Source of the DNA: an uncultured Methanobacteriaceae archaeon
GTDB taxonomy: Archaea > Methanobacteriota > Methanobacteria > Methanobacteriales > Methanobacteriaceae
Length of the DNA stretch: 64,000 nt
Reading direction: 5' to 3'
NCBI GenBank assembly: GCA_963703015.1
Contig: OY969779.1
Coordinates: 2,122,328 to 2,186,327, forward strand
The notes under the pieces were generated by a model that saw only the letters and a list, made by a program, of their open reading frames with translations, did no database searches and was not told the DNA's origin. Positions 8,214 through 23,509 of this stretch are shown here, in pieces. Within the stretch, counting starts at the first letter, position 1, and the number at the start of each line of letters is the position of its first letter. A program made the position numbers and the translations under genes.

Positions 8214-9140
8214 TTGAAAATTTATATTATTAACATGGGCTTTGATCATCGTGAAGATTTAAAGTATAACTATGAGGCGTTTGGGCTAAAAATTTCGTCT
8301 GAAATATATTTACCTGAATTATTACCTGTTCAGAAAACTAAATCTGATATCTCAATACATATTGGTGCAGTGGAACTTCCACTTATATCAATCCATGAGG
8401 GTATAAGCTTTAAAATAACAGAAAACGAAATTTATAGATTTTGGGATCATATTGGGAAATTCAAAATTACCGCGTATAGCATCTTGGTAGAACCTAATCT
8501 TTCTGTAGATCAAAATGTCCTTAAAAACTTTATATTGGGAACAGTATTTGCTACATTATTACGTTTAAGAGGAAATTTTGTGTTACATTCAAGTTGTGTA
8601 AATATCAATAATGCTGCGGTAGCGTTTTCTGGTTTTAAAGGTTATGGCAAATCTACTACAGCTATGGCTTTTTATTTAAGAGGATTTCCTTTAGTTGCTG
8701 ATGATTACATTGCAATAGAGTTTGATAAACACAACAACCCTCTTGTAATGCCGGGATTTCCTAGTTTAAGACTTTCATCAGATTCTAAACAAAATTTAGG
8801 TTTGTCATTAGATGATCATTTGGAAATGGAATTTTTGGAGAAACAATATGTATCAGCAAAAAAAAAATTTTCAAACAGAAAAATACCATTAAATAAAATA
8901 TATATCCTTGATAGGAAAGAAAAGCTGAATATAACTAAATTAAATCCACACGAATCATTCATAGAACTTGTTAAAAACACTTTTGGAATTTATACATTTT
9001 CTAAATCAGAACTTGCTGAAAACTTTTTTCAATGTGAAAACATTGTCAAAACAGTGAAAATTTCCAAGTTAGAAATTCCAGATTGTATTGAAAAAGTTCC
9101 AGAAACAATTCAAAGGATAAATAATGATATTACAAACTGA
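8214..9140 (+). CDS. HPr-kinase-like P-loop kinase (lasso-peptide-associated tailoring kinase)
   Basis: Motifs LHSSCV, Walker A GFKGYGKST and LVADD. It sits directly upstream of the PqqD and B2 genes. ATG 8235 is an alternative start. Confidence 0.8.
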   Translation: MKIYIINMGFDHREDLKYNYEAFGLKISSEIYLPELLPVQKTKSDISIHIGAVELPLISIHEGISFKITENEIYRFWDHIGKFKITAYSILVEPNLSVDQNVLKNFILGTVFATLLRLRGNFVLHSSCVNINNAAVAFSGFKGYGKSTTAMAFYLRGFPLVADDYIAIEFDKHNNPLVMPGFPSLRLSSDSKQNLGLSLDDHLEMEFLEKQYVSAKKKFSNRKIPLNKIYILDRKEKLNITKLNPHESFIELVKNTFGIYTFSKSELAENFFQCENIVKTVKISKLEIPDCIEKVPETIQRINNDITN

Positions 9141-9204
9141 TAAAATTATTCCACAAAAATTTGTAAATTCAAAAATATTTCTATAAATTATTTTTTCTAC
9201 TAGG

Positions 9205-9495
9205 GTGGTTATAATGAATGTGATTTCAGACAATACAATGGTTATGTTAAATGAAAATGTTGTTTCATGTGAACTTGATGGGGAAGTAGCAATATTAAAT
9301 ATGAATAATGGTGTTTACTATGGATTGAATCCAATAGGGGCCGTAATATGGGAATTAATAGAAAATTCTGTGAATGTAGCTCAAATCATAGCATTGGTAC
9401 TAACGGAGTATGATGTTGAAAAGGATCTTTGTCGTAGGGATATTTTTGAACTACTTGAAGAACTTTTAAAGAATGGATTGGTAAAGATCAAATGA
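9205..9495 (+). CDS. PqqD-family RiPP recognition element (lasso B1-type)
   Basis: 96 aa with ELDGEVAILN....YYGLNPIGAVIWELI...EYDV....C..D...LL..L...GLV. Overlaps the B2 start (ATGA). Confidence 0.9.
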   Translation: MVIMNVISDNTMVMLNENVVSCELDGEVAILNMNNGVYYGLNPIGAVIWELIENSVNVAQIIALVLTEYDVEKDLCRRDIFELLEELLKNGLVKIK

Positions 9496-9899
9496 CTTAC
9501 ATTCGAAATTTCTTTTATCTGAATAGTTCAGATAAACATTTGATATTAAAAACTTTTACCTACAGCTACATCATTCGAATATTAATGTGGTTTCTCCCCT
9601 TTCGATATATTCTAAAAATATCTGAATACATGGGACAAAAGAAAAAAATTAGCTCGGTAGTGAATATCAAAAAGATAATATGGGCTATAAACTGCACTGA
9701 TAATTTTGTATTAAAATCTACTTGTCTTACTAAAGCAATAACTGCTCAAATATTATTAAATCAAAATGATTATTTATCTATCGTGAAGATTGGAGTTTCT
9801 AAAAATACAAAATTTGAAGCTCATGCATGGGTTGAAGTTGATGGCCAAGTTGTATTGGGAAATTCAAAAAAGCAATTTGTATCTATAGTAGATTTATAA
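9492..9899 (+). CDS. Lasso peptide B2 leader peptidase (transglutaminase-like)
   Basis: 135 aa with the catalytic-type motifs STCLTKA and KIGV...FEAHAWVEVDGQVVLG. Translationally coupled to the PqqD gene. Confidence 0.88.
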   Translation: MTYIRNFFYLNSSDKHLILKTFTYSYIIRILMWFLPFRYILKISEYMGQKKKISSVVNIKKIIWAINCTDNFVLKSTCLTKAITAQILLNQNDYLSIVKIGVSKNTKFEAHAWVEVDGQVVLGNSKKQFVSIVDL

Positions 9900-10742
9900 G
9901 ATACTCCTCAAAAAATAGAAAAAAATAGTATCAATGTATTGCTCTTTTTCTTGGACATTTGCCATTAGTTTGAATGGTGAATAATTTTTTACTTGAACCG
10001 GTAATTTAAAAATAGCTTTTATAATGCTTAGATTTGTTTTTGTTGAGATTATGATTTTGTTTTTTGAATTTTTTATAGTTGATATTGTTCTATCTATGTT
10101 TCCTCCGATTTCAGTGTTTGTTGGTGGTGTTGTTTCTGTTGTGGTTGGTATTGTTCCGTCTATGTTTCCTCCGATTTCAGTGTTTGTTGGTGGTGTTGTT
10201 TCTGTTGTGGTTGGTATTGTTCCGTCTATGTTTCCTCCGATTTCAGTGTTTGTTGGTGGTGTTGTTTCTGTTGTGGTTGGTATTGTTCCGTCTATGTTTC
10301 CTCCGATTTCAGTGTTTGTTGGTGGTGTTGTTTCTGTTGTGGTTGGTATTGTTCCGTCTATGTTTCCTCCGATTTCAGTGTTTGTTGGTGGTGTTGTTTC
10401 TGTTGTGGTTGGTATTGTTCCGTCTATGTTTCCTCCGATTTCAGTGTTTGTTGGTGGTGTTGTTTCTGTTGTGGTTGGTATTGTTCCGTCTATGTTTCCT
10501 CCGATTTCAGTGTTTGTTGGTGTTGTTTCTGTTGTGGTTGGTATTGTTCCGTCTATGTTTCCTCCGATTTCAGTGTTTGTTGGTGGTGTTTCTGTTGTGG
10601 TTGGTATTGTTCCGTCTATGTTTCCTCCGATTTCAATAGGGTTTGTGGCTTCTGCAATGTCACAGGAAATGATAAGGGTCATACTTAAAAATAATATTGA
10701 GAATATAATTCCTTTGTAAATGTTAGCGTTGTCTTGTTTCAA
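9894..10742 (-). CDS. Secreted Thr/Pro-rich tandem-repeat protein
   Basis: Signal-peptide-like N-terminus, then repeats of TNTEIGGNIDGTIPTTTETTPP and a basic C-terminal tail. Upstream GGAGG RBS and TTG start. Confidence 0.7.
   Translation of the reverse strand: MKQDNANIYKGIIFSILFLSMTLIISCDIAEATNPIEIGGNIDGTIPTTTETPPTNTEIGGNIDGTIPTTTETTPTNTEIGGNIDGTIPTTTETTPPTNTEIGGNIDGTIPTTTETTPPTNTEIGGNIDGTIPTTTETTPPTNTEIGGNIDGTIPTTTETTPPTNTEIGGNIDGTIPTTTETTPPTNTEIGGNIDGTIPTTTETTPPTNTEIGGNIDRTISTIKNSKNKIIISTKTNLSIIKAIFKLPVQVKNYSPFKLMANVQEKEQYIDTIFFYFLRSIL
10091..10634. repeat. Coding tandem repeat: 66-bp unit, eight units (six of 66 bp, two of 63 bp) plus a partial ninth
   Basis: The motif tttcctccgatttc occurs 9 times at 66/63-bp spacing, with essentially identical units. 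Confidence 0.95.
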
Positions 10743-11045: not shown

Positions 11046-14000
11046 TCAACTCACAGTTATACTAATCTGTGATGAATTACCACTACTTACAGGTTCGTAC
11101 TCATTTTCTGCGGTTTTTGTTGCATTTAATGTATAAGTGGTATGCCCGTATGATGTTTTAAGTAGTGTGAATGTTAATGTGGCAGTTTCATTTATGTTTA
11201 AATTTCCAATGTTCCAAATCCCTGTGGATGATGTATAGTTGCCTTTATTAGGTGTTGAGGATACAATTGTCAGTCCACTCGGTATTAAATCAGTTATTTG
11301 AACTCCTGTAGCGTTTTGTAATCCATTATTTGTAACATTGACTGTTACATTGAAGTTGGTGTTACGTTTTGGGCTAGTGGTGCTTGGTGTTTGAGTTACA
11401 GTAATAACAGGAGTAATTGTGTTTCCATTACTGTCGAACCATATTGTTTTATTGGATAATATATTGAGGTCTTGAGTTCCATTCCATAAAATTTTATATG
11501 TTGTTCCATTATCTCCTTTATTTATCCTGACAGTTGAATCGATATTTTCATCATTTTTCCATTGCATATTTCCATAAATAAACGCAAATTTACCGTCTTT
11601 TGTTATTATAACGCTGAAGGTATCTAATTGGGAGGGATTTGTGTTTTGTGTAAATGATGGTAAATGATCCCATGTAATTGTAATATTGTTGTCGTTAACG
11701 AGATATGTGATGTTTCCAAGATTAGTTACATCTAAATCTGCCCAGAATGGTGCTATATATGCTATACTGCTTGGGGGGGCTGCGTTGTAATATGGTCCGG
11801 GTACAGGTGAACCGAAAGATACCAATCCATTCACACTTATGTATACCGTAGTATAAGTTTGACCATAGAAAGTTACTGGAAATGGTAATGTAATTGCAGT
11901 AGTGGTTCCGTCATCACTATTTATTGTTCCGCTGGTTGTACCTTCGTTTGTGAATGAATTTGTTTTATTTATTATACCATTTAAGACAAGATTTACACTT
12001 TGAGCATCATTTTGGGTATTCCAATCAAATTCATTTTCCGCTGTTTTTGAAGCCGTGTTTACGAAGTTTCCAATGTTTATTACTTTAGCTATAATAGTTA
12101 ATGTGCCTGTATCTCCATTTAAGATGTTTTGAATGGTCCATATTCCATTACTAAATGTTCCATAGTTAGTATCGGATGAAACATACTGTAAACCAGCTGG
12201 CAATAAGTCAGTTATATTCACTCCTGTAGCAATATCTGGCCCATTATTGGTAGTGTTTATAATAATTGTAATTGTGTCACCAGTAGAAGGTTTAGTATTG
12301 TTTATTGTTTGTGTTACGGCGATGTCTGCTGCGTCTGGTATGTTTATGGTGTTTGTTTGTGCGTTGTTGTTGTAGTTCCAGTCTATGAAGTTGGGTGTTA
12401 GTGGTGCTGTGAGTGCTGCTGTGTTTGTTATTGTTCCTGTTGCCGTGATTTGTGCGTTTATTATTAGTGTTTGTGTTATGCCGTTGTTGAGGTTTCCAAT
12501 TGTCCACATTCCTGTGGTGGGGTTGTATGCTCCGTTGGAGTTGTCCGATATGTATGTTAGTCCGTTTGGCAGTAAATCTTTGATTGTTACTCCTGTGCTG
12601 TTGTCTGGTCCGTTGTTTTTTGCGGTAATGGTGATAGTGACGTTGTTATTGTATTTGGTTGTTCCTGTTATGGTTTGGTTTACCTGGATATCTCCACTGG
12701 GTCTTACTGTTGTTGTAGCATTTTGTGTTGGTTGTGTTGTGTAAATTGGTGATATTACTGTTGCATTGTTGGTTAAATTTGCTGTTTGAGTTCCTGTAGC
12801 CAACGATCTGAGGAACACATTCATAAATGCTGTTCCACCCGGTGTTGAATCAATTCCTTTTGGCATGTAAGGTATTGTCCAGAGTATTGCTGTTACTTTT
12901 CCATTACTATCTGTAATGAGTGTTGTATTCCCATTGCCCCTAGTATCACAACCAATGTACTGATAGCCATCTGCAATTATATATTTAACAACTACATTGG
13001 TTGCATCGTCATAGCTGTCTGTGCTGCCTTTGTTTCTTACATCTACTACGTAAGTTGGGGTATTACTTGCATCAAAAGATCCATTAGCTGATATTGCCCA
13101 TAGGTATTGTGTTACTGTTATGTTGGTTTGGGGTGTGTATGTTTTTCCGGGTGGTATTATTATGGTGGTTTGTGCGTTGTTGTTGTAGTTCCAGTCTATG
13201 AAGTTGGGTGTTAGTGGTGCTGTGAGTGCTGCTGTGTTTTTGATTATGTTTGTTGTTGTGATTTGGGCTGTGATTATTAGTGTTTGTGTTATGCCGTTGT
13301 TGAGGTTTCCGATGGTCCACATTCCTGTGGTGGGGTTGTATGCTCCGTTGGAGTTGTCTGATATGTATGTTAGTCCGTTTGGTAATAGGTCTTTGATTGT
13401 TACTCCAGTACTGTTGTCTGGGCCGTTGTTTTTTACGGTTATGTTGATTTTTACTTGGCTGTTAAGGTTGGTTGTTCCTGTTATGGTTTGGTTTACTTGG
13501 ATATCTCCGCTGGGTCTTACGATGATTGATGTGCTGGTTTGGTTGTTTGTGTTGTTTATGTCATCTTGGTCGACGCTTTTGAGTGTGGCAGTGTTGGTTA
13601 AGTTGGGTGTGTTAGTTCCTGTTGTTAGTGTTTTGAGGAATACATTCATGAATGCTGTTCCGCCAGGTGTTGATTCATATGCTTTTGGCATGTAGGGGAT
13701 TGTCCAAAGTATTGCTGTTACTTTTCCGTTACTGTCTTTTATGAGTGTTGTGTATCCGTTTCCTCTGGTGTCTGCTGCACTGTATTGGAATCCATTTCCT
13801 ATGTCGTATTCTATTACGACATTAGTAGCATCATCAAGTGTGCCCATATTTCTTACATCTACAACAAATGCTGGCACATTACTTGCATCAAAGGATCCTG
13901 CGGATGGTGTGAACCATAGGTATTGGTTGACTTTTATGTCTACAGCTTTTGGTACGTTTATACTTGTTTTTTGTGCGTTGTTATCTATTTGTGGGTCTGT

Positions 14001-14396
14001 TTCTGTTTGTGCTGTTTTGGTGGCGTTGTTTTTGATTATTCCGGTACTTGTTACGTTTGTTATTATGTTCAGTGTTTTTGCTACGCCGTCGTTGATTGTT
14101 CCAATTGTCCATATTCCGGTTGTGGGGTTGTATGCTCCGTTTGAATCGTCTGATATGTATGTTAAGCCTTTTGGTATTTTTGTAGTGATTTGAACGCCAG
14201 TTGCAGCGTCCGGTCCTTTATTTGTTACAGTTGTGGCGTATTTGATTGTTGATCCGTAATGTGGTGCTGTATTATTCACGGTTTGATTAACCTGAATGTC
14301 TGCACTAGCCGCACTAACTGCACCACTTAATAAAACTGCAAAAAATAAACTAAAAATCAAAAATATAAACTTGCTATCTATAAACTTCTTACTCAA
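11046..14396 (-). CDS. Adhesin-like surface protein: multiple DUF11 (Ig-like) domains, a NIDO-like domain and a terminal DUF11
   Basis: Signal peptide and repeated N.GPD.ATGV.I.D.LP.GL.Y...W.IG.L modules. LPFPVTFYGQTY...VNGLVSF...IAPFWADLD is the NIDO-like signature. Confidence 0.88.
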   Translation of the reverse strand: MSKKFIDSKFIFLIFSLFFAVLLSGAVSAASADIQVNQTVNNTAPHYGSTIKYATTVTNKGPDAATGVQITTKIPKGLTYISDDSNGAYNPTTGIWTIGTINDGVAKTLNIITNVTSTGIIKNNATKTAQTETDPQIDNNAQKTSINVPKAVDIKVNQYLWFTPSAGSFDASNVPAFVVDVRNMGTLDDATNVVIEYDIGNGFQYSAADTRGNGYTTLIKDSNGKVTAILWTIPYMPKAYESTPGGTAFMNVFLKTLTTGTNTPNLTNTATLKSVDQDDINNTNNQTSTSIIVRPSGDIQVNQTITGTTNLNSQVKINITVKNNGPDNSTGVTIKDLLPNGLTYISDNSNGAYNPTTGMWTIGNLNNGITQTLIITAQITTTNIIKNTAALTAPLTPNFIDWNYNNNAQTTIIIPPGKTYTPQTNITVTQYLWAISANGSFDASNTPTYVVDVRNKGSTDSYDDATNVVVKYIIADGYQYIGCDTRGNGNTTLITDSNGKVTAILWTIPYMPKGIDSTPGGTAFMNVFLRSLATGTQTANLTNNATVISPIYTTQPTQNATTTVRPSGDIQVNQTITGTTKYNNNVTITITAKNNGPDNSTGVTIKDLLPNGLTYISDNSNGAYNPTTGMWTIGNLNNGITQTLIINAQITATGTITNTAALTAPLTPNFIDWNYNNNAQTNTINIPDAADIAVTQTINNTKPSTGDTITIIINTTNNGPDIATGVNITDLLPAGLQYVSSDTNYGTFSNGIWTIQNILNGDTGTLTIIAKVINIGNFVNTASKTAENEFDWNTQNDAQSVNLVLNGIINKTNSFTNEGTTSGTINSDDGTTTAITLPFPVTFYGQTYTTVYISVNGLVSFGSPVPGPYYNAAPPSSIAYIAPFWADLDVTNLGNITYLVNDNNITITWDHLPSFTQNTNPSQLDTFSVIITKDGKFAFIYGNMQWKNDENIDSTVRINKGDNGTTYKILWNGTQDLNILSNKTIWFDSNGNTITPVITVTQTPSTTSPKRNTNFNVTVNVTNNGLQNATGVQITDLIPSGLTIVSSTPNKGNYTSSTGIWNIGNLNINETATLTFTLLKTSYGHTTYTLNATKTAENEYEPVSSGNSSQISITVS
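12296..14384. repeat. Copy 1 of a 2089-bp near-identical direct repeat (copy 2 at 15613..17701)
   Basis: Constant 3317-bp offset at both ends. Identical shadow ORFs occur at 12292/15609 and 13741/17058. Confidence 0.92.
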
Positions 14397-14746
14397 ACTT
14401 TCCCCCTCACCTTCATTCTTTTTAATATTTTATTTCGTTACAATCCCAAAAAAATCAATTTTTTATAGAAATTCTAGAGAATTTTCTATGTAATCGTTAA
14501 TACTAATACTTCTAAAATAATCTTTATAAATGTTTTGTTTATATTTTGATTTTTGTGATGATATGCACTTTATGGAAAATTAGTAGTGAATATAATCACA
14601 AACTCAAATCAAACTCAAATATTTCATGTGAAATTAACCTTCATAATTTTTAAATACAAAATTAAATTGTAATAATTTTCTAAAAAACAGATAATAGAAT
14701 CAAATATTGAATAAAATAAAAAAAAGGAAAAAAAACAAAGATAAAT

Positions 14747-17710
14747 TTAGAGGGGATTTGGAATTCCATTACTATCAAACCAAATATTTGAGGGTAATGA
14801 ACTCAAATCTTGAGTGCCATCCCAAAAATCATGGTAAGTACTGCTGTCGCCTTTATTTATCCTAGCATAGGTTAAATATTCATCATTCGTCCACTGAACA
14901 TCATTATAAATAAAAGCAAATTCACCATATGCATTCATTATTAAACTTACTGTATTCACAACGTCACTAGTACAGTTTGTATGGCAAGGTATACTGTCCC
15001 AAGTAATCATTGCCTGATCATCACTTACAGAATAACTAATATTACCCAAATAAGTTGTATCAAAATCTGCCCAAAATGGTGCTAAATATGCCACATTTGA
15101 TGGTGGTAATGTGCTGAACTGTCCTGTTACAGGAGCATTGAATGATACTAATCCATTAACATTTATATAGATGGTATTATAAGTTTGACCATATAAAGTT
15201 ACGTTGAAAGGTAATGTTATTTTACTTGTACTTCCATCATTATCATCAGTTGCGCCATCAGATGTTCCATCACTCGTGAAAGCCATTTTATTTATAGTTT
15301 CTAATATATTCAAACCATTACTAGTCACATCATTAGAGTTATTCCAATCATATTCATTATCACGAATTGTTATTGGATTTGTGAAACTGATAACATTCAC
15401 CAGTTTAGCTATCAATGTTAAAGTTGTGCTATCTCCATTTAGTAAGTCTTGAATGATCCACGTATTATCGTTGTATGTACCATAACTTGTTTCTGATGAT
15501 ATATATTGCAAGCCTTGAGGTAATAAATCAGATATATTTAGGTTTGTAGCAATGTCCGGGCCATTGTTAACTACATTCAAAACTATTTCAACATCTTCTG
15601 AATCGCCGTCAATATTGTTTATTGTTTGTGTTACGGCGATGTCTGCTGCGTCTGGTATGTTTATGGTGTTTGTTTGTGCGTTGTTGTTGTAGTTCCAGTC
15701 TATGAAGTTGGGTGTTAGTGGTGCTGTGAGTGCTGCTGTGTTTGTTATTGTTCCTGTTGCCGTGATTTGTGCGTTTATTATTAGTGTTTGTGTTATGCCG
15801 TTGTTGAGGTTTCCAATTGTCCACATTCCTGTGGTGGGGTTGTATGCTCCGTTGGAGTTGTCCGATATGTATGTTAGTCCGTTTGGCAGTAAATCTTTGA
15901 TTGTTACTCCTGTGCTGTTGTCTGGTCCGTTGTTTTTTGCGGTAATGGTGATAGTGACGTTGTTATTGTATTTGGTTGTTCCTGTTATGGTTTGGTTTAC
16001 CTGGATATCTCCACTGGGTCTTACTGTTGTTGTAGCATTTTGTGTTGGTTGTGTTGTGTAAATTGGTGATATTACTGTTGCATTGTTGGTTAAATTTGCT
16101 GTTTGAGTTCCTGTAGCCAACGATCTGAGGAACACATTCATAAATGCTGTTCCGCCAAGTGTTGATTCATATGCTTTTGGCATGTAAGGTATTGTCCAGA
16201 GTATTGCTGTTACTTTTCCATTACTATCTGTAATGAGTGTTGTATTCCCATTGCCCCTAGTATCACAACCAATGTATTGGAATTCGTTTCCAATATCGTA
16301 TTCTATTATTACATTGGTTGCATCGTCATAGTCGTCTGTGCTGCCTTTGTTTCTTACATCTACTACGTATGTTGGCGTATTACTTGCATCAAAAGATCCA
16401 TTTACTGTTGTGGTCCATAGGTATTGTGTTACTGTTATGTTGGTTTGGGGTGTGTATGTTTTTCCGGGTGGTATTATTATGGTGGTTTGTGCGTTGTTGT
16501 TGTAGTTCCAGTCTATGAAGTTGGGTGTTAGTGGTGCTGTGAGTGCTGCTGTGTTTTTGATTATGTTTGTTGTTGTGATTTGGGCTGTGATTATGAGTGT
16601 TTGTGTTATGCCGTTGTTGAGGTTTCCGATGGTCCATATTCCTGTGGTGGGGTTGTATGCTCCGTTGGAGTTGTCTGATATGTATGTTAGTCCGTTTGGT
16701 AATAGGTCTTTGATTGTTACTCCAGTACTGTTGTCTGGGCCGTTGTTTTTTATAGTTATGTTGATTTTTACTTGGCTGTTAAGGTTGGTTGTTCCTGTTA
16801 TGGTTTGGTTTACTTGGATATCTCCGCTGGGTCTTACGATGATTGATGTGCTGGTTTGGTTGTTTGTGTTGTTTATGTCATCTTGGTCGACGCTTTTGAG
16901 TGTGGCAGTGTTGGTTAAGTTGGGTGTGTTAGTTCCTGTTGTTAGTGTTTTGAGGAATACATTCATGAATGCTGTTCCGCCAGGTGTTGATTCATATGCT
17001 TTTGGCATGTAGGGGATTGTCCAAAGTATTGCTGTTACTTTTCCGTTACTGTCTTTTATGAGTGTTGTGTATCCGTTTCCTCTGGTGTCTGCTGCACTGT
17101 ATTGGAATCCATTTCCTATGTCGTATTCTATTACGACATTAGTAGCATCATCAAGTGTGCCCATATTTCTTACATCTACAACAAATGCTGGCACATTACT
17201 TGCATCAAAGGATCCTGCGGATGGTGTGAACCATAGGTATTGGTTGACTTTTATGTCTACAGCTTTTGGTACGTTTATACTTGTTTTTTGTGCGTTGTTA
17301 TCTATTTGTGGGTCTGTTTCTGTTTGTGCTGTTTTGGTGGCGTTGTTTTTGATTATTCCGGTACTTGTTACGTTTGTTATTATGTTCAGTGTTTTTGCTA
17401 CGCCGTCGTTGATTGTTCCAATTGTCCATATTCCGGTTGTGGGGTTGTATGCTCCGTTTGAATCGTCTGATATGTATGTTAAGCCTTTTGGTATTTTTGT
17501 AGTGATTTGAACGCCAGTTGCAGCGTCCGGTCCTTTATTTGTTACAGTTGTGGCGTATTTGATTGTTGATCCGTAATGTGGTGCTGTATTATTCACGGTT
17601 TGATTAACCTGAATGTCTGCACTAGCCGCACTAACTGCACCACTTAATAAAACTGCAAAAAATAAACTAAAAATCAAGAATATAAACTTGCTATCTATAA
17701 ATTTATTCAT
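14747..17710 (-). CDS. Paralogous DUF11 + NIDO-like adhesin (tandem duplicate)
   Basis: N-terminal ~690 aa nearly identical to 11046..14396, with a diverged NIDO-like C-terminus. Start moved to ATG 17710 (MNKFIDSK, GGGGGA RBS); the ORF track starts at 17827. Confidence 0.88.
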   Translation of the reverse strand: MNKFIDSKFIFLIFSLFFAVLLSGAVSAASADIQVNQTVNNTAPHYGSTIKYATTVTNKGPDAATGVQITTKIPKGLTYISDDSNGAYNPTTGIWTIGTINDGVAKTLNIITNVTSTGIIKNNATKTAQTETDPQIDNNAQKTSINVPKAVDIKVNQYLWFTPSAGSFDASNVPAFVVDVRNMGTLDDATNVVIEYDIGNGFQYSAADTRGNGYTTLIKDSNGKVTAILWTIPYMPKAYESTPGGTAFMNVFLKTLTTGTNTPNLTNTATLKSVDQDDINNTNNQTSTSIIVRPSGDIQVNQTITGTTNLNSQVKINITIKNNGPDNSTGVTIKDLLPNGLTYISDNSNGAYNPTTGIWTIGNLNNGITQTLIITAQITTTNIIKNTAALTAPLTPNFIDWNYNNNAQTTIIIPPGKTYTPQTNITVTQYLWTTTVNGSFDASNTPTYVVDVRNKGSTDDYDDATNVIIEYDIGNEFQYIGCDTRGNGNTTLITDSNGKVTAILWTIPYMPKAYESTLGGTAFMNVFLRSLATGTQTANLTNNATVISPIYTTQPTQNATTTVRPSGDIQVNQTITGTTKYNNNVTITITAKNNGPDNSTGVTIKDLLPNGLTYISDNSNGAYNPTTGMWTIGNLNNGITQTLIINAQITATGTITNTAALTAPLTPNFIDWNYNNNAQTNTINIPDAADIAVTQTINNIDGDSEDVEIVLNVVNNGPDIATNLNISDLLPQGLQYISSETSYGTYNDNTWIIQDLLNGDSTTLTLIAKLVNVISFTNPITIRDNEYDWNNSNDVTSNGLNILETINKMAFTSDGTSDGATDDNDGSTSKITLPFNVTLYGQTYNTIYINVNGLVSFNAPVTGQFSTLPPSNVAYLAPFWADFDTTYLGNISYSVSDDQAMITWDSIPCHTNCTSDVVNTVSLIMNAYGEFAFIYNDVQWTNDEYLTYARINKGDSSTYHDFWDGTQDLSSLPSNIWFDSNGIPNPL
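15613..17701. repeat. Copy 2 of the 2089-bp direct repeat
   Basis: Matches 12296..14384 apart from a few substitutions and one divergent patch (16154..16415). Confidence 0.92.
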
Positions 17711-17830
17711 TATTAGTTCCCCCAAAACACTAACATATTCCGCAAAATTATTATTATCTATGAATTGGTAGCAAATATAAATATATAAAATTATGTATAA
17801 TCCAGAAATAAGCTTATGTTTATACAATTA

Positions 17831-17870: not shown

Positions 17871-19760
17871 ATGGGTGCAATAGTAGGAATTTTTAATCGT
17901 AATGGACACGAAGTAGATATAAATCACATTAAACGTATGAATAATTGTATTTCATATATTGGGAAGGATGGATCTGCAATTTTAAATAAAGGATCTATAG
18001 CATTTGGTCACCAAATGCTTCACACTACTAAAGAATCAATGAGTGAGAATCTTCCATTCTATGACAAAAGTTCAAGATTAATAATTACAGCGGATGCAAG
18101 GATAGATAATAGGGATGAACTTTCAAAGCATTTAAACATTGAAAACAATTATAAAGTGTCTGATAGTTTTTACATTCTCAAATCTTATCAAAAATGGGGA
18201 GAAAATTGTACCGATAAAATTATTGGGGATTTTGCTTTTGCTATATGGGATATAAATAATGATCAACTGTTTTGTGCAAGGGATCATGTTGGAGTAAAAC
18301 CATTTTATTATTACGTGGATGAAAAAATATTTTTATTTTCAACAGAAATAAAATCATTAATAACAAATCCGCTAGTAAATTATTCTTTAAATGAAAAAAA
18401 AGCGGCATATTATTTGTTAGGTTCCTATGATGACAGGGAAATAACATTTTATAACAATATTTCTCGTTTACCTGCAGCTAACAGATTAATAGTCACTGAT
18501 GATACGTTTGAATTGATTAAATATTGGAGTTTAGATTATAATAAAAAAATTAATTTAGATTCAGAAAATGAATACTTTACCAGTTTTCGAAAAATTTTTA
18601 ATAATGCTGTTAAAGTTCGCTTAAGAAGTGCTTTTCCAGTAGGGGCTATGCTTAGTGGGGGATTGGATTCTTCATCCATTGTTTGCACTGCTCGTAATAT
18701 GTTAATGAAAAACAACAATAGTTATCCATTAAAAACTTTTTCATTAATTTTTGATAACACTCCTGAAGGTGATGAAAGAGAATTTATAAATCATGTAATT
18801 AAAAAAGGATTTATTCAACCTATTTTTATTAATGCGGATAATTATAGCCCTGTATTTGATAATAATCCTATTTTGTGGAATAATGATGAACCAAATAGGG
18901 CATTTAACTTATATTATGATTATTTATTAGATGAAGCTGCAAACAAAAATTCTATAAGAATTTTACTTGATGGATTGGGTGGAGATTCAACAGTTTCACA
19001 TGGAAAGGGATTAGTAGTAGACTACTTAAATAATAATAATTTTAAAAAAGCATTTAATGAAATTAACTGCACATCAAAACGTTTACAACAAAACAAGACT
19101 AAATTATTTGTAAATGAACTTATACTTACTTGTCCAGATTCCTTTTTAATTAAATTTCTGAATAACAATATATTGAAAAATAATAGAAATATATTAAACC
19201 ACGATTTTCAAGAATATATCAACGAACATTATGAATTATTATCTAAAAATAAAATAGTGAATCTCTCAGATAAAGCTAAAGAATATCATTTTAACATGCT
19301 AAATTCTGGTTTGATTCAGCATACATTTGAAGAAATAAACAAAATAACGACCTATTTTAATGTTGAGCAGCGTTATCCATTTTATGATGTCAATTTGTTG
19401 GAATTTTGTTTGGCTGTTCCATCAGAAATAAAACGTAAATATGGATGGGATCGGTTTTTGATGAGACAAGCCATGAATGAAGTTTTGCCTAAAGAAATTC
19501 AATGGCGCGAAAATAAAAAAACAGGAATTAATAGCAACATTAAAAATTTTATATCTCATGATTCAAAATTTATTGACGCTGTGTTAAATGATAATGAAAT
19601 TATTCAAAAATATGTTGATATAGATTTACTTCAAAAACTTTGGGAGGATGTAAAGAAGAATCAAAGACCAAAGGAATTTTTTTTATTGTGGAATGGTATT
19701 TCCTTAGCTTTATGGTTGAACCAATCCAATTTAAATAGTAAAAAATTTAATATATCTTAA
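17871..19760 (+). CDS. Lasso cyclase (asparagine-synthetase-like macrolactam synthetase)
   Basis: AsnB fold: ADARIDNR, GDFAFAIWD, ARDHVGVKPFYY, ATP motif LSGGLDSS, LDGLGGD and RYPFYD. It begins MGAIVG, lacking the glutaminase Cys of AsnB (MCGI). The precursor gene is 32 nt downstream. Confidence 0.85.
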   Translation: MGAIVGIFNRNGHEVDINHIKRMNNCISYIGKDGSAILNKGSIAFGHQMLHTTKESMSENLPFYDKSSRLIITADARIDNRDELSKHLNIENNYKVSDSFYILKSYQKWGENCTDKIIGDFAFAIWDINNDQLFCARDHVGVKPFYYYVDEKIFLFSTEIKSLITNPLVNYSLNEKKAAYYLLGSYDDREITFYNNISRLPAANRLIVTDDTFELIKYWSLDYNKKINLDSENEYFTSFRKIFNNAVKVRLRSAFPVGAMLSGGLDSSSIVCTARNMLMKNNNSYPLKTFSLIFDNTPEGDEREFINHVIKKGFIQPIFINADNYSPVFDNNPILWNNDEPNRAFNLYYDYLLDEAANKNSIRILLDGLGGDSTVSHGKGLVVDYLNNNNFKKAFNEINCTSKRLQQNKTKLFVNELILTCPDSFLIKFLNNNILKNNRNILNHDFQEYINEHYELLSKNKIVNLSDKAKEYHFNMLNSGLIQHTFEEINKITTYFNVEQRYPFYDVNLLEFCLAVPSEIKRKYGWDRFLMRQAMNEVLPKEIQWRENKKTGINSNIKNFISHDSKFIDAVLNDNEIIQKYVDIDLLQKLWEDVKKNQRPKEFFLLWNGISLALWLNQSNLNSKKFNIS

Positions 19761-19792
19761 AAAGATTAAAATATTAATTGGGGTATGGATAT

Positions 19793-19918
19793 ATGCCAAA
19801 GAAAACTGAAAAAAAACAAGTATACAATAAACCTATATTAAAAAAATATGGAGATATCACTAAACTCACATTAGGACCTGATGGATTCGGTGGAGATAAA
19901 GATGGTGGTAGTGGGTAA
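19793..19918 (+). CDS. Lasso peptide precursor (41 aa): leader MPKKTEKKQVYNKPILKKYGDITKLTL, core GPDGFGGDKDGGSG
   Basis: Hand translated; not in the ORF track. Has Y-x-x-P-x-L-x-x-x-G leader motif, Thr at -2, Gly at +1 and Asp at +8. GGGGT RBS upstream. Lies between the cyclase and the ABC transporter. Confidence 0.88.
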   Translation: MPKKTEKKQVYNKPILKKYGDITKLTLGPDGFGGDKDGGSG

Positions 19919-20055
19919 GAATAAAAAATTGTTTAAATACTTCACTTCGAAGTTTTTTGAATAGTAGATTCATACTCAATATACTAATAAAAATTTATTT
20001 TAATGGGCATCGCTTTATTGAATTATTTGTTCGTACTTATTTTTTATAAATTGAT

Positions 20056-21873
20056 TTGTTGGTGAAAATGATCATAAATACATTTAAAAAAAGTCTAATG
20101 AATCAATACTTAACTAATCTTATAAAATTATTGAAAAAAAAAGTTTCATATTCTCTAATTTTGATGGTTTTAATAAGTTTAACAGAGGGATTTAGTTTAA
20201 TATTGTTAATCCCTTTACTTCAACTGATTGGTATAGATATGGGCTCGGGATCTGTAAACCAAATCGGGGGATATATTTCTATTTTTTTTAATGCTCTTGG
20301 ATTGAAACCTTCCTTGATTTTAGTTCTTATCATATATGTTTTGGTGATAAGTGTAATAGCTATTTTAAATAGAATGCAAAACGTCATCACAGCAGATATT
20401 CAATATCAATTTGCAGCCGATATGCGAATCAATTTGTATAAATCTATTACAAATTCCAATTGGCTTTTCTTCTCAAGGATGAAATCATCTAACTTTGCAC
20501 ATGCCTTGACTAACGAAATAGAAAGGGTGAGCATTGGAACTGGACAGTTCTTAACTTTATTAGCAAGCATAATGATTTTGTTAGTGTATATTATTTTTGC
20601 ACTTAAACTAGCTGGTTTAATTACTGGAGTTATATTCATTGTGGGAGTAATAATTTTGCTAATATTGAGAAAAAAGATTAATAGTTCCAGAACTAAAGGT
20701 GAACATGTTACAACCACTACACAAGATTTATACTCGTCTATAATTCAGCAATTAAATGGCATGAAAACAATTAAGAGTTTTGGCATGGAAGAAGAAAATA
20801 TTAAAATATTTTCTAAACAAACTGATCAAGTAGCACAAACTTACCTTGATACGATTCAAAGTTATGCTGATGTAAAATTACTATTTGACGTTGGAACTGT
20901 GGTCATACTTTCTATTATTGTGTGGCTTTTGATTGAAGTTGTGAACATATCCACTGTAACCCTACTTATTTTAATTTATTTATTTGTGAGAATGATCCCA
21001 CAATTTTCAATAATACAAAGAAGTTATCAATATTTTATAAGCATCCTACCTGCATATAATAATGTAATAACTCTTGAAAAAGAGTGCATCGAAAAAACAG
21101 ATATTAAAGGGCAAGTTAACGACAAAATAAAGTTAAATAACTCAATAACTTTTAATAATGTTTCATTTTCATATTCTAAATCAAATTATTTTTCAATGGA
21201 AAATTTAAACCTTAAAATAAACGCAGGCAAAACAATAGCAATAGTGGGACCTTCTGGTTCTGGAAAAACAACAATTGCAGACATGATTATGGGACTCATT
21301 TTTCCTGAGGAAGGTGAGTTGAAAGTTGATGATCTTACTTTATCTCCAGAACTACTTAGAATCTGGAGAAATCAAATTGGATATGTATCTCAAGAAACTT
21401 TTCTATTTAATGAAAGTATAAGATCTAATCTGATTCTAGCAAATCCCAATGCTACGGATGAAGAGATAATAGAATCTTTAAAATTAGCATCTGCATACCG
21501 ATTTGTTAATAATCTACATGAAGGTTTAGAAACTAATATTGGTGATTTAGGAGTTAAATTATCTGGTGGAGAAAGACAAAGATTAGCATTAGCTCGTGCC
21601 TTACTCAGAAAACCATCTATTTTAATATTAGATGAAGCTACAAGTAACTTAGATTCAGAAAATGAGACAAAAATTATGGAATCACTTGATGAGATTCATG
21701 GTGACATTACAATATTAATAATAGCACACAGGTTGTCCACAATTAAAAATGCCGATTATGTCTACTTAATTGATAAGGGTCGTATTTTGGAATATGGGAC
21801 TAAGGAAAAACTATTAAAAAATGATGAAGGACAATTCAAGTCCATTTATAATTCACAAGGTTTGTATGAATAA
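20056..21873 (+). CDS. ABC exporter, fused TMD-NBD (lasso D-type)
   Basis: N-terminal TM helices, then GPSGSGKT, LSGGERQR, ILILDEATS and IAHRL. No C39 peptidase domain. Confidence 0.92.
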   Translation: MLVKMIINTFKKSLMNQYLTNLIKLLKKKVSYSLILMVLISLTEGFSLILLIPLLQLIGIDMGSGSVNQIGGYISIFFNALGLKPSLILVLIIYVLVISVIAILNRMQNVITADIQYQFAADMRINLYKSITNSNWLFFSRMKSSNFAHALTNEIERVSIGTGQFLTLLASIMILLVYIIFALKLAGLITGVIFIVGVIILLILRKKINSSRTKGEHVTTTTQDLYSSIIQQLNGMKTIKSFGMEEENIKIFSKQTDQVAQTYLDTIQSYADVKLLFDVGTVVILSIIVWLLIEVVNISTVTLLILIYLFVRMIPQFSIIQRSYQYFISILPAYNNVITLEKECIEKTDIKGQVNDKIKLNNSITFNNVSFSYSKSNYFSMENLNLKINAGKTIAIVGPSGSGKTTIADMIMGLIFPEEGELKVDDLTLSPELLRIWRNQIGYVSQETFLFNESIRSNLILANPNATDEEIIESLKLASAYRFVNNLHEGLETNIGDLGVKLSGGERQRLALARALLRKPSILILDEATSNLDSENETKIMESLDEIHGDITILIIAHRLSTIKNADYVYLIDKGRILEYGTKEKLLKNDEGQFKSIYNSQGLYE

Positions 21874-21895: not shown

Positions 21896-22312
21896 TTATA
21901 TCAAGTTACCACTGGCATTGATTTTCAAATCATATTTAATTATATTATGGCTGGTGTCCGGAAAATCTATATAAATTCTTGAAACTCCTTTAGCCGGAAT
22001 TGAAGGCGGGGTTAGATGGGGAGTATCGTTGGTAGCAATAACGTTTCCTTGAGTATCATAGGCTGTTGCAATTATTTTTACATTTAAAGCATCATTCGAA
22101 TTGTTATTAACTAGATATCCTCTTATATAATAATATTCAACTCCGTCTGTTCCATTGTAAGTTCCGGATGTAGTATTGTTTGAAAGATAAATTGAATCTT
22201 CTGAAAAGATTTTTTCTCCAAAAGTTCCATTGGGTGCTGTTTTGGTGGTACAACCAGAAATAGCAACTGAAACAATTAGTAAAAGTGTTACACAGATAAA
22301 TTTTTTAAACAT
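21896..22312 (-). CDS. Small lipoprotein (FxLYD-like Ig domain)
   Basis: Lipobox-like ISGC and YIRGYLVN...NVKIIATAYD..GNVI...L.P..IPA. Confidence 0.65.
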   Translation of the reverse strand: MFKKFICVTLLLIVSVAISGCTTKTAPNGTFGEKIFSEDSIYLSNNTTSGTYNGTDGVEYYYIRGYLVNNNSNDALNVKIIATAYDTQGNVIATNDTPHLTPPSIPAKGVSRIYIDFPDTSHNIIKYDLKINASGNLI

Positions 22313-22423: not shown

Positions 22424-23509
22424 ATGTTATATTTAAATAATAATAACTGTTCTAATTTTACTAATGAAGAAGAACTTCTATTATTATGTGCAAGAGAACA
22501 AATTAATAAAGATCATAGAATTAAACTAAGAAATCTTTTGGAAAACGATATAAATTGGGATTATTTACTTAAATTGGCAGCAAAACACAAAATTAAACCC
22601 CTTGTTTATAGTAGCTTAAAAACATTGGATAAAAATAAGATTCCAAAAGAAGTTTTCATAGAATTAGAATCCCATTTTATTAGAAACTTACAAAAAAATT
22701 TGATGTATTTAGGACATTTATATAACATCTTAAAATTATTCCATAATAATAAAATCAAATCTATTCCGTATAAAGGGCCGGTTTTAGCTTTAAATGCCTA
22801 TGGAAATTTAGGATTACGCGAATTTGTGGATCTGGATATATTTGTTCAAAAAAAGGACATAGTGCGCGCAAAAAACGTTCTTGTTTCAAATGGGTACATT
22901 AGTTATATCAAAAATTCAGGGTTTAAAGAAAATATTTATTACCAATTTCATAGGGACATGTTATTTTTTGATAGCAAACGTAATGTAAATATTGAAATTC
23001 AATGGAATTTCATTGGACAGTCATTCACATACAATGGGAATGTATTCAAAAATCCTAAAAACATCCATTCTACAAAATTAAACAATAAAGAAATTTTTAG
23101 TCTTTCATCAGAAGACATGCTTTTAATTTTATGTATTCATGCTTCAGGCCATTTATGGGAACAGATATCTTGGATATGTGATATTGTTGTATTCATTAAT
23201 GTCAACAAGATAAACTGGACTAGTCTCATTAAAAAAAGTAAAATATTAGGTTTTAATCGAATATTAAATATAAACCTTCTCTTATCAATGGAATTGTTTG
23301 ATTTGAAAATTCCAAACGAATTTTCAGAATTAATATCCAATGATGAATACTCTAAAAAATTGGTCTCAGATATTATAAAAATCCTTTTTCAAAGTGAAAG
23401 CTCAGGAAGAAGAAATTTTTACCTTTTTAAGATGCGTTACAAACTTAGGGAGAATCCCGTTCAAGGATTTAAAGATTTTATCAAAATAATAGTTTCAAAC
23501 TTGATATAG
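22424..23509 (+). CDS. Nucleotidyltransferase family protein (NTP_transf_5-like, lasso-cluster type)
   Basis: Motifs YKGPVLA..AYG..GLREFVDLDIFV, IEIQWN and EDMLLILCIHASGH.W...W.CD. Confidence 0.82.
   Translation: MLYLNNNNCSNFTNEEELLLLCAREQINKDHRIKLRNLLENDINWDYLLKLAAKHKIKPLVYSSLKTLDKNKIPKEVFIELESHFIRNLQKNLMYLGHLYNILKLFHNNKIKSIPYKGPVLALNAYGNLGLREFVDLDIFVQKKDIVRAKNVLVSNGYISYIKNSGFKENIYYQFHRDMLFFDSKRNVNIEIQWNFIGQSFTYNGNVFKNPKNIHSTKLNNKEIFSLSSEDMLLILCIHASGHLWEQISWICDIVVFINVNKINWTSLIKKSKILGFNRILNINLLLSMELFDLKIPNEFSELISNDEYSKKLVSDIIKILFQSESSGRRNFYLFKMRYKLRENPVQGFKDFIKIIVSNLI

What the first reader, a model, noticed from the sequence alone, without database searches (positions are those of the whole stretch)
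19793..19918. Unannotated 41-aa precursor with textbook leader and a very short Gly-rich core
Seen: MPKKTEKKQVYNKPILKKYGDITKLTL-GPDGFGGDKDGGSG, with Y-x-x-P-x-L and G in the leader, Thr at -2, Gly1 and Asp8 (core at 19874..19915). It is below the ORF-track cutoff. Inference: a Gly1-Asp8 macrolactam with a 6-residue tail KDGGSG. A 14-aa core is shorter than the characterised lasso peptides I recall (about 15-26 aa), and 7 of 14 residues are Gly with no bulky plug in the tail. The product may therefore be an unthreaded branched-cyclic peptide, a minimal lasso, or one locked by tailoring. Hand-calculated monoisotopic mass of the cyclised core is about 1203.48 Da.
Basis: partly seen in the sequence, partly recalled or inferred. 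Interest (0 to 1): 0.9.

Follow-up and report, generated by a model that had tools for sequence, protein, structure and literature searches.

The report
Archaeal lasso-peptide precursor, short Gly-rich core
This 41-codon gene is the genuine precursor of a lasso peptide in a methanogen, and its 14-residue glycine-rich core is typical of a large uncharacterised archaeal lasso family, so it is a good test case, not a record-breaker.

Summary
The ORF at 19793-19918 (+) exists exactly as described. It is a real lasso-peptide precursor.

- **Position.** It starts 32 nt after the genome's only lasso cyclase (NCBIfam NF033535, 644 bits, cut-off 525).
- **Motif.** It carries the full leader motif Y-17/P-14/L-12/G-8/T-2. 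That motif occurs 3 times in the whole 2.72-Mb genome, and only here is it followed by a plausible core.
- **Conservation.** Two other lineages have the peptide with G1, G4-F-G-G-D8, G12-S-G14 and the 14-residue length unchanged. D3 and D10 vary, so D8 is the ring acceptor.
- **Pathway.** It is complete but split: kinase, B1 and B2 at 8214-9899; cyclase, precursor and ABC exporter at 17871-21873; then a lipoprotein and a PF14907 nucleotidyltransferase.
- **Closest known.** Pseudomycoidin (kinase plus nucleotidyltransferase). Here, though, the only Ser is penultimate, not C-terminal.

The claim that a 14-aa core is shorter than any characterised lasso peptide is wrong: huascopeptin has 13. Among 36 Methanobacteriaceae precursors, cores are 13-23 aa and 8 have 14 or fewer. 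Whether the product is threaded cannot be decided by computation. A modified Ser13 is the only candidate plug.

Unexpectedly, a DUF11 surface-protein gene accompanies these clusters family-wide.

Verdict: new member of a known kind, moderate interest.

The parts
19793..19918 (+). Lasso precursor gene (A). Leader 19793-19873 (27 aa), core 19874-19915 (GPDGFGGDKDGGSG), stop 19916-19918.
   Evidence: Searches give the sequence. NF033521 scores 20 bits against a cut-off of 19. It is the only full motif-plus-core match in the genome. Orthologues are in L044 and L005/L047. Against L044 there are 8 synonymous and 5 non-synonymous codon changes, and none of the non-synonymous ones falls on a motif position.
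17871..19760 (+). Lasso cyclase (C): an AsnB-like macrolactam synthetase.
   Evidence: NF033535 scores 644.4 bits against a cut-off of 525. Pfam finds Asn_synthase plus GATase domains. The N-terminus is MGAIV, so it lacks the Cys2 nucleophile of true AsnB. The SGGxDS PP-loop (S262-S267) is conserved in 42 homologues. It is the only copy in the genome.
20056..21873 (+). ABC exporter (D). The true start is probably the ATG at 20069, which follows GGTGA.
   Evidence: Pfam finds ABC_membrane plus ABC_tran. Homologues of 49-88% identity lie in most family clusters.
21896..22312 (-). 138-aa lipoprotein (lipobox ISGC) with an FxLYD-like domain, conserved next to D.
   Evidence: Sequence. NF038353 scores 23.2 bits against a cut-off of 23. 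The order 'D> Lipo<' recurs in about 25 of 41 loci.
22424..23509 (+). PF14907 nucleotidyltransferase (N), PsmN-like tailoring enzyme.
   Evidence: PF14907 scores 187.5 bits. D136-x-D138 is at least 95% conserved in 20 homologues; the catalytic PsmN residues are D134/D136.
8214..9140 (+). HPr-kinase-like tailoring kinase (K).
   Evidence: Hpr_kinase_C scores 28.3 bits, below its cut-off of 33.3. HprK-related TIGR04355/04352 give weak hits. PDB HprK gives E = 0.007. H125, GxGK146S and D163-D164 are at least 95% conserved in 38 homologues, matching the His-Lys-Asp-Asp motif of lasso kinases.
9205..9495 (+). B1: PqqD-like leader-recognition element (RRE).
   Evidence: PF05402 scores 64.4 bits. NF033536 scores 76 bits, just under its cut-off of 80. 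It is the only PqqD match in the genome (E <= 1).
9492..9899 (+). B2: transglutaminase-like leader peptidase.
   Evidence: PF13471 scores 59 bits. NF033537 scores 73.8 bits against a cut-off of 33. C78 and H111 are conserved. It is the only copy in the genome.
11046..17827 (-). Two tandem DUF11-repeat surface-protein genes (11046-14396 and 14747-17827) lying between B2 and C. They are conserved neighbours of the cluster, not a foreign insertion.
   Evidence: PF01345 scores 352-454 bits, and one copy has a NIDO domain. A DUF11 gene is present in 37 of 41 family loci, against about 0.135 expected.

Best explanation
The ORF is the precursor gene (A) of a complete lasso-peptide pathway in a Methanobacteriaceae archaeon. 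The pathway carries two tailoring enzymes, a kinase and a nucleotidyltransferase.

Inferred by homology with characterised bacterial systems:
1. B1 (PqqD-type RRE) binds the YxxPxL leader.
2. The HprK-like kinase phosphorylates the only hydroxyl residue of the core, Ser13, on the linear precursor.
3. B2 (Cys/His peptidase) cuts after Leu-1, using Thr-2 as its recognition residue.
4. The cyclase adenylates the Asp8 side chain and joins it to the Gly1 amine. This gives an 8-residue macrolactam with the tail KDGGSG (1203.479 Da unmodified).
5. The PF14907 enzyme adds a further group, a hexose by analogy with PsmN, onto the phosphate.
6. The ABC transporter exports the product.

Shown here: gene identities, intact catalytic motifs, and conservation of the peptide.

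Inferred: every chemical step, and the topology.

Empirical minima for lasso peptides are a loop of at least 3 and a tail of at least 2 residues. A threaded form could therefore only have K9-D10-G11(-G12) as the loop. That places Ser13 directly under the ring, so a modified Ser13 is the only possible plug. Without that modification I expect the peptide to unthread to a branched cycle, as unmodified pseudomycoidin does.
For: - Cyclase above the NCBIfam cut-off, and no Cys2.
- Precursor above the lasso_leader_L3 cut-off.
- Single-copy B1, B2 and C in the genome, so the two half-clusters must work together.
- Catalytic residues conserved in K (H-K-D-D), N (DxD), B2 (C, H) and C (SGGxDS).
- The motif-plus-core combination is unique in the genome.
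- Three orthologous precursors keep G1, GFGGD8 and GSG14, and the same stop position. Residues 2-3 and 9-11 vary.
- Against L044, 8 synonymous and 5 non-synonymous codon changes, with motif residues untouched.
- Of 35 family precursors, 28 hit the NCBIfam lasso_cyano model.
- The same gene set (K, B1, B2, C, A, D, Lipo, N) recurs in most of 40 related loci.
- Pseudomycoidin precedent: K phosphorylates the precursor, N adds hexose to the phospho-Ser, the plug-less product unthreads, and the authors propose a phosphoglycosyl lock.
- All 9 family cores whose tails lack F/W/Y/H/R carry a Ser in the last two positions, against 16 of 27 of the others (one-sided Fisher p = 0.022; sequences are not independent).
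Against: - No transcript, peptide or mass data.
- The Ser is penultimate (GSG). Characterised lasso kinases act on a strictly C-terminal Ser.
- The kinase's Pfam and NCBIfam scores are below their cut-offs.
- The lasso_leader_L3 score is only 1 bit above its cut-off.
- K, B1 and B2 lie 8 kb from C-A-D, across opposite-strand genes.
- K is present even in family clusters whose cores lack a terminal Ser, so its target may differ.
- The tail contains no conventional plug.
Confidence: 0.85

Rival explanations
1. The precursor is genuine, but the mature product is an unthreaded branched-cyclic (lariat) peptide. The tail is too short and too small to be trapped. Phosphorylation serves solubility, export or activity, not topology.
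For: The tail KDGGSG has no F/W/Y/H/R. Steric locks are usually bulky aromatic residues. Wild-type pseudomycoidin purified without K/N modification is a branched cycle, and only an L21F mutant stays threaded.
Against: A loop of 3 and a tail of 2-3 satisfy the empirical minima. The invariant GSG end, and the link between plug-less tails and a terminal Ser, suggest the Ser has a structural role. Lasso cyclases fold the substrate before ring closure (established knowledge).
Confidence: 0.35
2. The ring or the cleavage site differs from Gly1-Asp8. Examples would be cleavage one residue away, or an isopeptide to Asp10 or Asp3.
For: The core holds three Asp residues. Some family members begin with K, Q or N after the T-x position, so the cleavage register is not proven.
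Against: D3 and D10 are replaced by N or Q in orthologues, while D8 is invariant. In 24 of 36 family cores the first acidic residue within positions 7-9 is at position 8. Known lasso rings are 7-9 residues.
Confidence: 0.05
3. The cluster is a silent or decaying relic. The split arrangement uncouples A-C-D from K-B1-B2, and no product is made.
For: An 8-kb separation by three opposite-strand genes. No expression data.
Against: All reading frames and catalytic motifs are intact. The same split order is kept in an orthologue whose cyclase is only 57% identical. Substitutions in the peptide gene avoid every motif residue.
Confidence: 0.08
4. A chance small ORF that happens to resemble a lasso leader.
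For: It is short, and the HMM score is marginal (20 bits against 19).
Against: There are 3 motif matches in the genome, and only this one has a core. It lies 32 nt after the only cyclase. It is conserved in three lineages with the same stop position. Precursors lie beside the cyclase in 35 other loci.
Confidence: 0.01

Closest known systems
Pseudomycoidin (Bacillus pseudomycoides psm cluster: PsmA, C, K, B1, B2, N, D)
   Same: Same gene set, including an HprK-like kinase and an 'uncharacterised nucleotidyltransferase' with a catalytic DxD (PsmN D134/D136; D136/D138 here). The tail has no effective plug. The kinase acts on the linear precursor. The authors proposed a phospho-hexose lock on the tail end.
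   Different: Pseudomycoidin has an A1-D9 ring, is far larger (unmodified m/z 2618, against 1203.5 Da here) and its modified Ser is the last residue. Here the ring is G1-D8, the core is 14 aa, the Ser is penultimate (GSG), the host is an archaeon, the cluster is split, and it carries DUF11 and lipoprotein genes.
Paeninodin / ThcoK-SyanK type phosphorylated lasso peptides
   Same: An HprK-like kinase with a His-Lys-Asp-Asp motif, a split B1/B2, and an ABC exporter.
   Different: A C-terminal Ser is described as extremely conserved in those precursors. Here the Ser is followed by Gly. In the archaeal family only 17 of 36 cores end in Ser.
Huascopeptin (13 aa, G1-D7) and chaxapeptin (15 aa): the smallest characterised class II lasso peptides
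   Same: Comparable total size. Huascopeptin has a 6-residue tail, by subtraction from the lengths.
   Different: From my own knowledge, those peptides have aromatic tail plugs and no tailoring, and xanthomonin II is a further small (14-aa, 7-residue-ring) example. An 8-residue ring with an all-small 6-residue tail has no characterised precedent that I could find.
Cyanobacterial-type lasso systems (NCBIfam NF033535 cyclase, NF033528 precursors), uncharacterised
   Same: The cyclase passes this model's cut-off. Of 35 archaeal precursors, 28 hit lasso_cyano. Cyanobacterial and planctomycete relatives have B1-C-A-K-N.
   Different: The bacterial loci fetched show no DUF11 or lipoprotein partner within 6 kb.

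Membership tests
Lasso peptide precursor (RiPP class) | Leader with YxxPxL...G...T at -17/-14/-12/-8/-2 | tested here: met
   Y, P, G and T are invariant in 35 family precursors. NF033521 scores 20 bits against a cut-off of 19.
Lasso peptide precursor (RiPP class) | Core residue 1 small (Gly) and Asp/Glu at position 7, 8 or 9 | tested here: met
   G1 and D8, both invariant in three orthologues.
Lasso peptide precursor (RiPP class) | Encoded with a lasso cyclase, a B1/RRE and a B2 peptidase | tested here: met
   C is adjacent (NF033535, 644 bits against 525). B1 and B2 are 8 kb upstream and are the only copies in the genome.
Lasso peptide precursor (RiPP class) | Macrolactam formed, with the tail threaded through the ring | not testable with these tools
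   Needs MS/MS, carboxypeptidase or thermal assays, ion mobility or NMR.
Kinase-tailored (paeninodin/pseudomycoidin-type) lasso peptides | HprK-like kinase with His-Lys-Asp-Asp in the cluster | tested here: met
   H125, K146 and D163-D164 are at least 95% conserved in 38 homologues. HMM scores are below their cut-offs.
Kinase-tailored (paeninodin/pseudomycoidin-type) lasso peptides | Ser as the very last residue of the precursor | tested here: not met
   The core ends GSG in all three orthologues. I therefore file it as 'works like', not as a member.
Kinase-tailored (paeninodin/pseudomycoidin-type) lasso peptides | PsmN-type nucleotidyltransferase with a catalytic DxD | tested here: met
   PF14907 scores 187 bits. 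D136/D138 are conserved, against PsmN D134/D136.
Kinase-tailored (paeninodin/pseudomycoidin-type) lasso peptides | Phosphate (with or without hexose) actually installed on the Ser | not testable with these tools
   Predicted masses: +79.966 gives 1283.446 Da, and a further +162.053 gives 1445.498 Da.

The most novel reading that the evidence does not exclude
This would be a minimal archaeal lasso: an 8-residue ring, a 3-residue loop and a 2-3-residue tail. Its thread would be held by a phospho-glycosyl group on penultimate Ser13, not by a bulky side chain. That is the 'third locking strategy' proposed but never shown for pseudomycoidin. The peptide would also work together with the DUF11 surface protein and the lipoprotein that accompany these clusters across Methanobacteriaceae, for example as a ligand, modulator or phosphodiester-linked decoration of the cell surface, not as a secreted antibiotic.
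Probability: 0.15. Interest if true: 0.8.

Novelty: new member of a known kind. Interest (0 to 1): 0.45.

Why it matters
I found no experimentally characterised archaeal lasso peptide in the held literature. Yet 61 of 201 sampled Methanobacteriaceae genomes carry the cyclase.

This precursor is one of the simplest members: 14 residues, one hydroxyl group and no conventional plug. It is therefore a clean substrate for three questions:
- Can phosphorylation or glycosylation lock a lasso?
- Can lasso kinases act on a non-terminal Ser?
- What does a lasso peptide do in a methanogen?

The family-wide pairing of the precursor with a DUF11 surface-protein gene hints at a role tied to the cell surface. 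If confirmed, that would widen the known biology of lasso peptides.

Tried and rejected
- **More members of the GFGGD...GSG subfamily.** The JGI metagenome scan with the three-sequence alignment confirmed nothing. The back-translated core pattern found nothing there. In 314 family genomes it matched only G000 and G099. The 5.8-billion-protein search gave one relative, P0004.
- **DUF11 block as a recent insertion that split the cluster.** Rejected. The same order occurs in an orthologue whose cyclase is 57% identical. A DUF11 gene neighbours the cyclase or precursor in 37 of 41 loci.
- **In-frame stops in related cyclases as pseudogenes.** Rejected for the five checked: two showed only read-through of the natural stop at the C-terminal end of the alignment, and three showed no stop in a tblastn alignment that ended short of the C-terminus.
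- **Terminator after A.** The consensus scan found none. A 5-bp hairpin plus T6 is not significant (z = -1.3).
- **PDB sequence searches.** K gave only weak HprK hits. N gave nothing useful.
- **Papers.** The paeninodin JBC paper and the RODEO paper are not held. Kinase tolerance to a C-terminal extension could therefore not be looked up.

Full report
**Observation**

Window 19793-19918 (+) is an ATG-initiated 41-codon ORF. It encodes MPKKTEKKQVYNKPILKKYGDITKLTL-GPDGFGGDKDGGSG. A G-rich ribosome-binding-like GGGGT lies 8 nt upstream.

- The leader has Y-17, P-14, L-12, G-8 and T-2.
- The core has G1 and D8, and 7 of its 14 residues are Gly.
- The cyclised mass is 1203.479 Da.

The strict leader motif occurs 3 times in the six-frame translation of the whole 2.72-Mb genome. 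Only this copy is followed by a 12-30-residue core with an acidic residue at positions 7-9.

**Surroundings**

The ORF begins 32 nt after the stop of a 629-aa AsnB-like protein (17871-19760).
- That protein scores 644 bits on NCBIfam NF033535, 'lasso peptide isopeptide bond-forming cyclase' (cut-off 525).
- It starts MGAIV, so it lacks the Cys2 nucleophile of real asparagine synthases.
- It keeps the SGGxDS PP-loop.

Downstream lie three more genes:
- an ABC exporter (20056/20069-21873);
- a 138-aa lipoprotein on the minus strand (21896-22312);
- a PF14907 nucleotidyltransferase (22424-23509).

The leader peptidase and its recognition partner are not adjacent. A search of the whole genome found a single B2 (PF13471; window 9492-9899) and a single PqqD-type B1 (window 9205-9495). 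They follow an HPr-kinase-like gene at 8214-9140. Because C, B1 and B2 are all single-copy, the two halves must form one system.

Between the halves lie three minus-strand genes: a Thr/Pro-repeat protein and two tandem DUF11-repeat surface proteins.

**Conservation of the peptide**

Two further lineages carry the gene in the same place.
- A Methanobacteriaceae MAG of the same genus (L005 = G099; cyclase 57% identical) encodes MSEENEKKQYKKPQLEKYGDISVITM-GMQGFGGDYNQGSG.
- Logan assemblies (L044-L046; cyclase 85% identical) encode MPKKTEKKQEYYKPSLKKYGDITKLTL-GPNGFGGDKDSGSG.

Across the three sequences:
- G1, G4-F5-G6-G7-D8, G12-S13-G14, the 14-residue length and the stop position are invariant.
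- D3 becomes N or Q, and D10 becomes N.
- Residues 9-11 vary.

D8 is therefore the acceptor. Between the window and L044 there are 8 synonymous and 5 non-synonymous codon changes, and no non-synonymous change touches a motif residue.

This core type is rare. It matches 2 of 314 family genomes and none of the JGI metagenome contigs.

**The family**

The cyclase is present in 61 of 201 sampled Methanobacteriaceae genomes, in 12 of 27 genera. I fetched 20 kb around 40 of these cyclases. I then located homologues of each window gene, and precursors by the leader motif.

This gave 36 precursors, including the window's own.
- Y, P, G and T of the leader are invariant in the 35 that were aligned.
- Of those 35, 28 hit the NCBIfam lasso_cyano model.
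- Cores are 13-23 aa, with a median of 16, and 8 have 14 or fewer.
- They are about 25% Gly.
- All have D/E at positions 7-9, most often at 8 (24 of 36).
- 17 end in Ser, and 8 more have Ser only at the penultimate position.

The window's peptide is therefore typical of its family, not an outlier.

Huascopeptin has 13 aa, and solved structures span 14-33 aa.

**Tailoring enzymes**

The kinase family keeps H125, the GxGK146S P-loop and D163-D164 in 38 homologues. That is the His-Lys-Asp-Asp motif shown to be essential in lasso-peptide kinases.

The PF14907 protein keeps D136-x-D138. The catalytic pair of PsmN is D134/D136.

In pseudomycoidin:
- PsmK phosphorylates the precursor's terminal Ser.
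- PsmN adds one or two hexoses to the phosphate.
- The unmodified peptide lacks a plug and is isolated unthreaded.
- The authors suggested that the phospho-hexose could be a lock.

The present peptide fits that logic even more starkly. Its tail, KDGGSG, has one hydroxyl group and no bulky residue. Empirical minima are a loop of at least 3 and a tail of at least 2 residues. The only threaded geometry then places Ser13 immediately below the ring.

In the family, all 9 cores whose tails lack F/W/Y/H/R have Ser in the last two positions, against 16 of 27 of the rest (one-sided Fisher p = 0.022). The sequences are phylogenetically non-independent, so this is only a hint.

The clear difference from the bacterial precedent is the position of the Ser. 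It is penultimate here, whereas a C-terminal Ser is described as extremely conserved in kinase-associated precursors. For that reason I do not file the peptide as a member of the paeninodin/pseudomycoidin family, only as working like it.

**Relatives outside archaea**

Cyanobacterial and planctomycete loci with cyclases 32-39% identical show two layouts. Two have B1-C-A-K-N, and a third, a cyanobacterial locus, has K-B1-B2-C. None has a DUF11 gene within 6 kb. This is consistent with the archaeal system belonging to the 'cyanobacterial-type' lasso lineage of NCBIfam.

**An unexpected regularity**

A DUF11-repeat surface-protein gene lies in 37 of the 41 loci. About 0.135 would be expected from the 16 DUF11 genes in this genome.

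The commonest order is C> A< DUF11<. In 23 loci the precursor begins 25-259 nt after the DUF11 stop codon on the same strand, convergent with the cyclase. I checked this by direct ORF reading in L058.

The window's lineage has the precursor behind the cyclase instead, with the DUF11 genes divergent from C. The 138-aa lipoprotein is likewise a constant partner of the exporter.

The 8-kb 'interruption' is therefore a conserved part of the neighbourhood, not an insertion. An earlier, unchecked note from another genome reported a kinase/PF14907-tailored RiPP coupled to a giant DUF11 surface protease. That is a lead, not evidence.

**What remains unknown**

- Whether the gene is expressed.
- Whether Ser13 is modified.
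- Whether the product is threaded.
- What the product does.

I found no characterised archaeal lasso peptide in the held literature. Euryarchaeotal sequences are already included in genome-mined lasso sets.

**Verdict**

This is a new member of a known kind. It has moderate interest as a minimal test case for tailoring-locked lassos, and as an entry point to an uncharacterised archaeal lasso family linked to surface proteins.

Noticed in passing
window 11046-17827 (-); loci L047-L086: A DUF11-repeat surface-protein gene accompanies the lasso cyclase or precursor in 37 of 41 Methanobacteriaceae loci. In 23 loci the precursor starts 25-259 nt after the DUF11 stop on the same strand, convergent with the cyclase. 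This points to co-transcription and a functional link.
   Followed up: partly
window 21896-22312 (-): A 138-aa lipoprotein (lipobox ISGC, FxLYD-like domain at the NCBIfam cut-off) sits opposite-strand next to the ABC exporter in about 25 of 41 loci. It could be an immunity or export accessory protein.
   Followed up: partly
loci L048, L049, L052, L054, L062, L067, L068, L072, L086: Some family clusters carry a second HprK-like kinase paralogue on the DUF11/precursor strand, between C and A (order C> K< A< DUF11<).
   Followed up: no
L064, L071, L084: A subgroup of predicted cores has an RGD or KGD triplet ending at the ring-closing Asp8 (GTSGSRGDGG..., GTSGKRGDGT..., GASGTKGDGT...), with the leader ending LTW.
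   Followed up: no
window 9894-10742 (-): A 282-aa predicted secreted protein made of about nine near-identical 22-23-aa repeats (EIGGNIDGTIPTTTETTPPTNT). Its stop codon abuts the B2 stop. It has no family hit.
   Followed up: no
L003 (CAWIYT010000353.1): A 9-kb contig binned as Nitrososphaerales carries a cyclase 45% identical and a kinase 49% identical to the window's, plus a weak DUF11 hit. This is either mis-binning of a Methanobacteriaceae contig or lateral transfer.
   Followed up: no
window 14747-17827 (-), residues 884-937: One DUF11 paralogue has a NIDO (nidogen-like) domain near its C-terminus. tblastn matches from the other family loci do not reach this region, except in the closest orthologue.
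   Followed up: partly
L050, L081: Two precursors have longer cores with two Cys (GVEKPGAEDGGFGCSGGPGCQ and NVENVGAEDGTFGCSAPHCPPKN). They may be disulfide-containing lasso peptides. No B1 or B2 lies within 10 kb.
   Followed up: no
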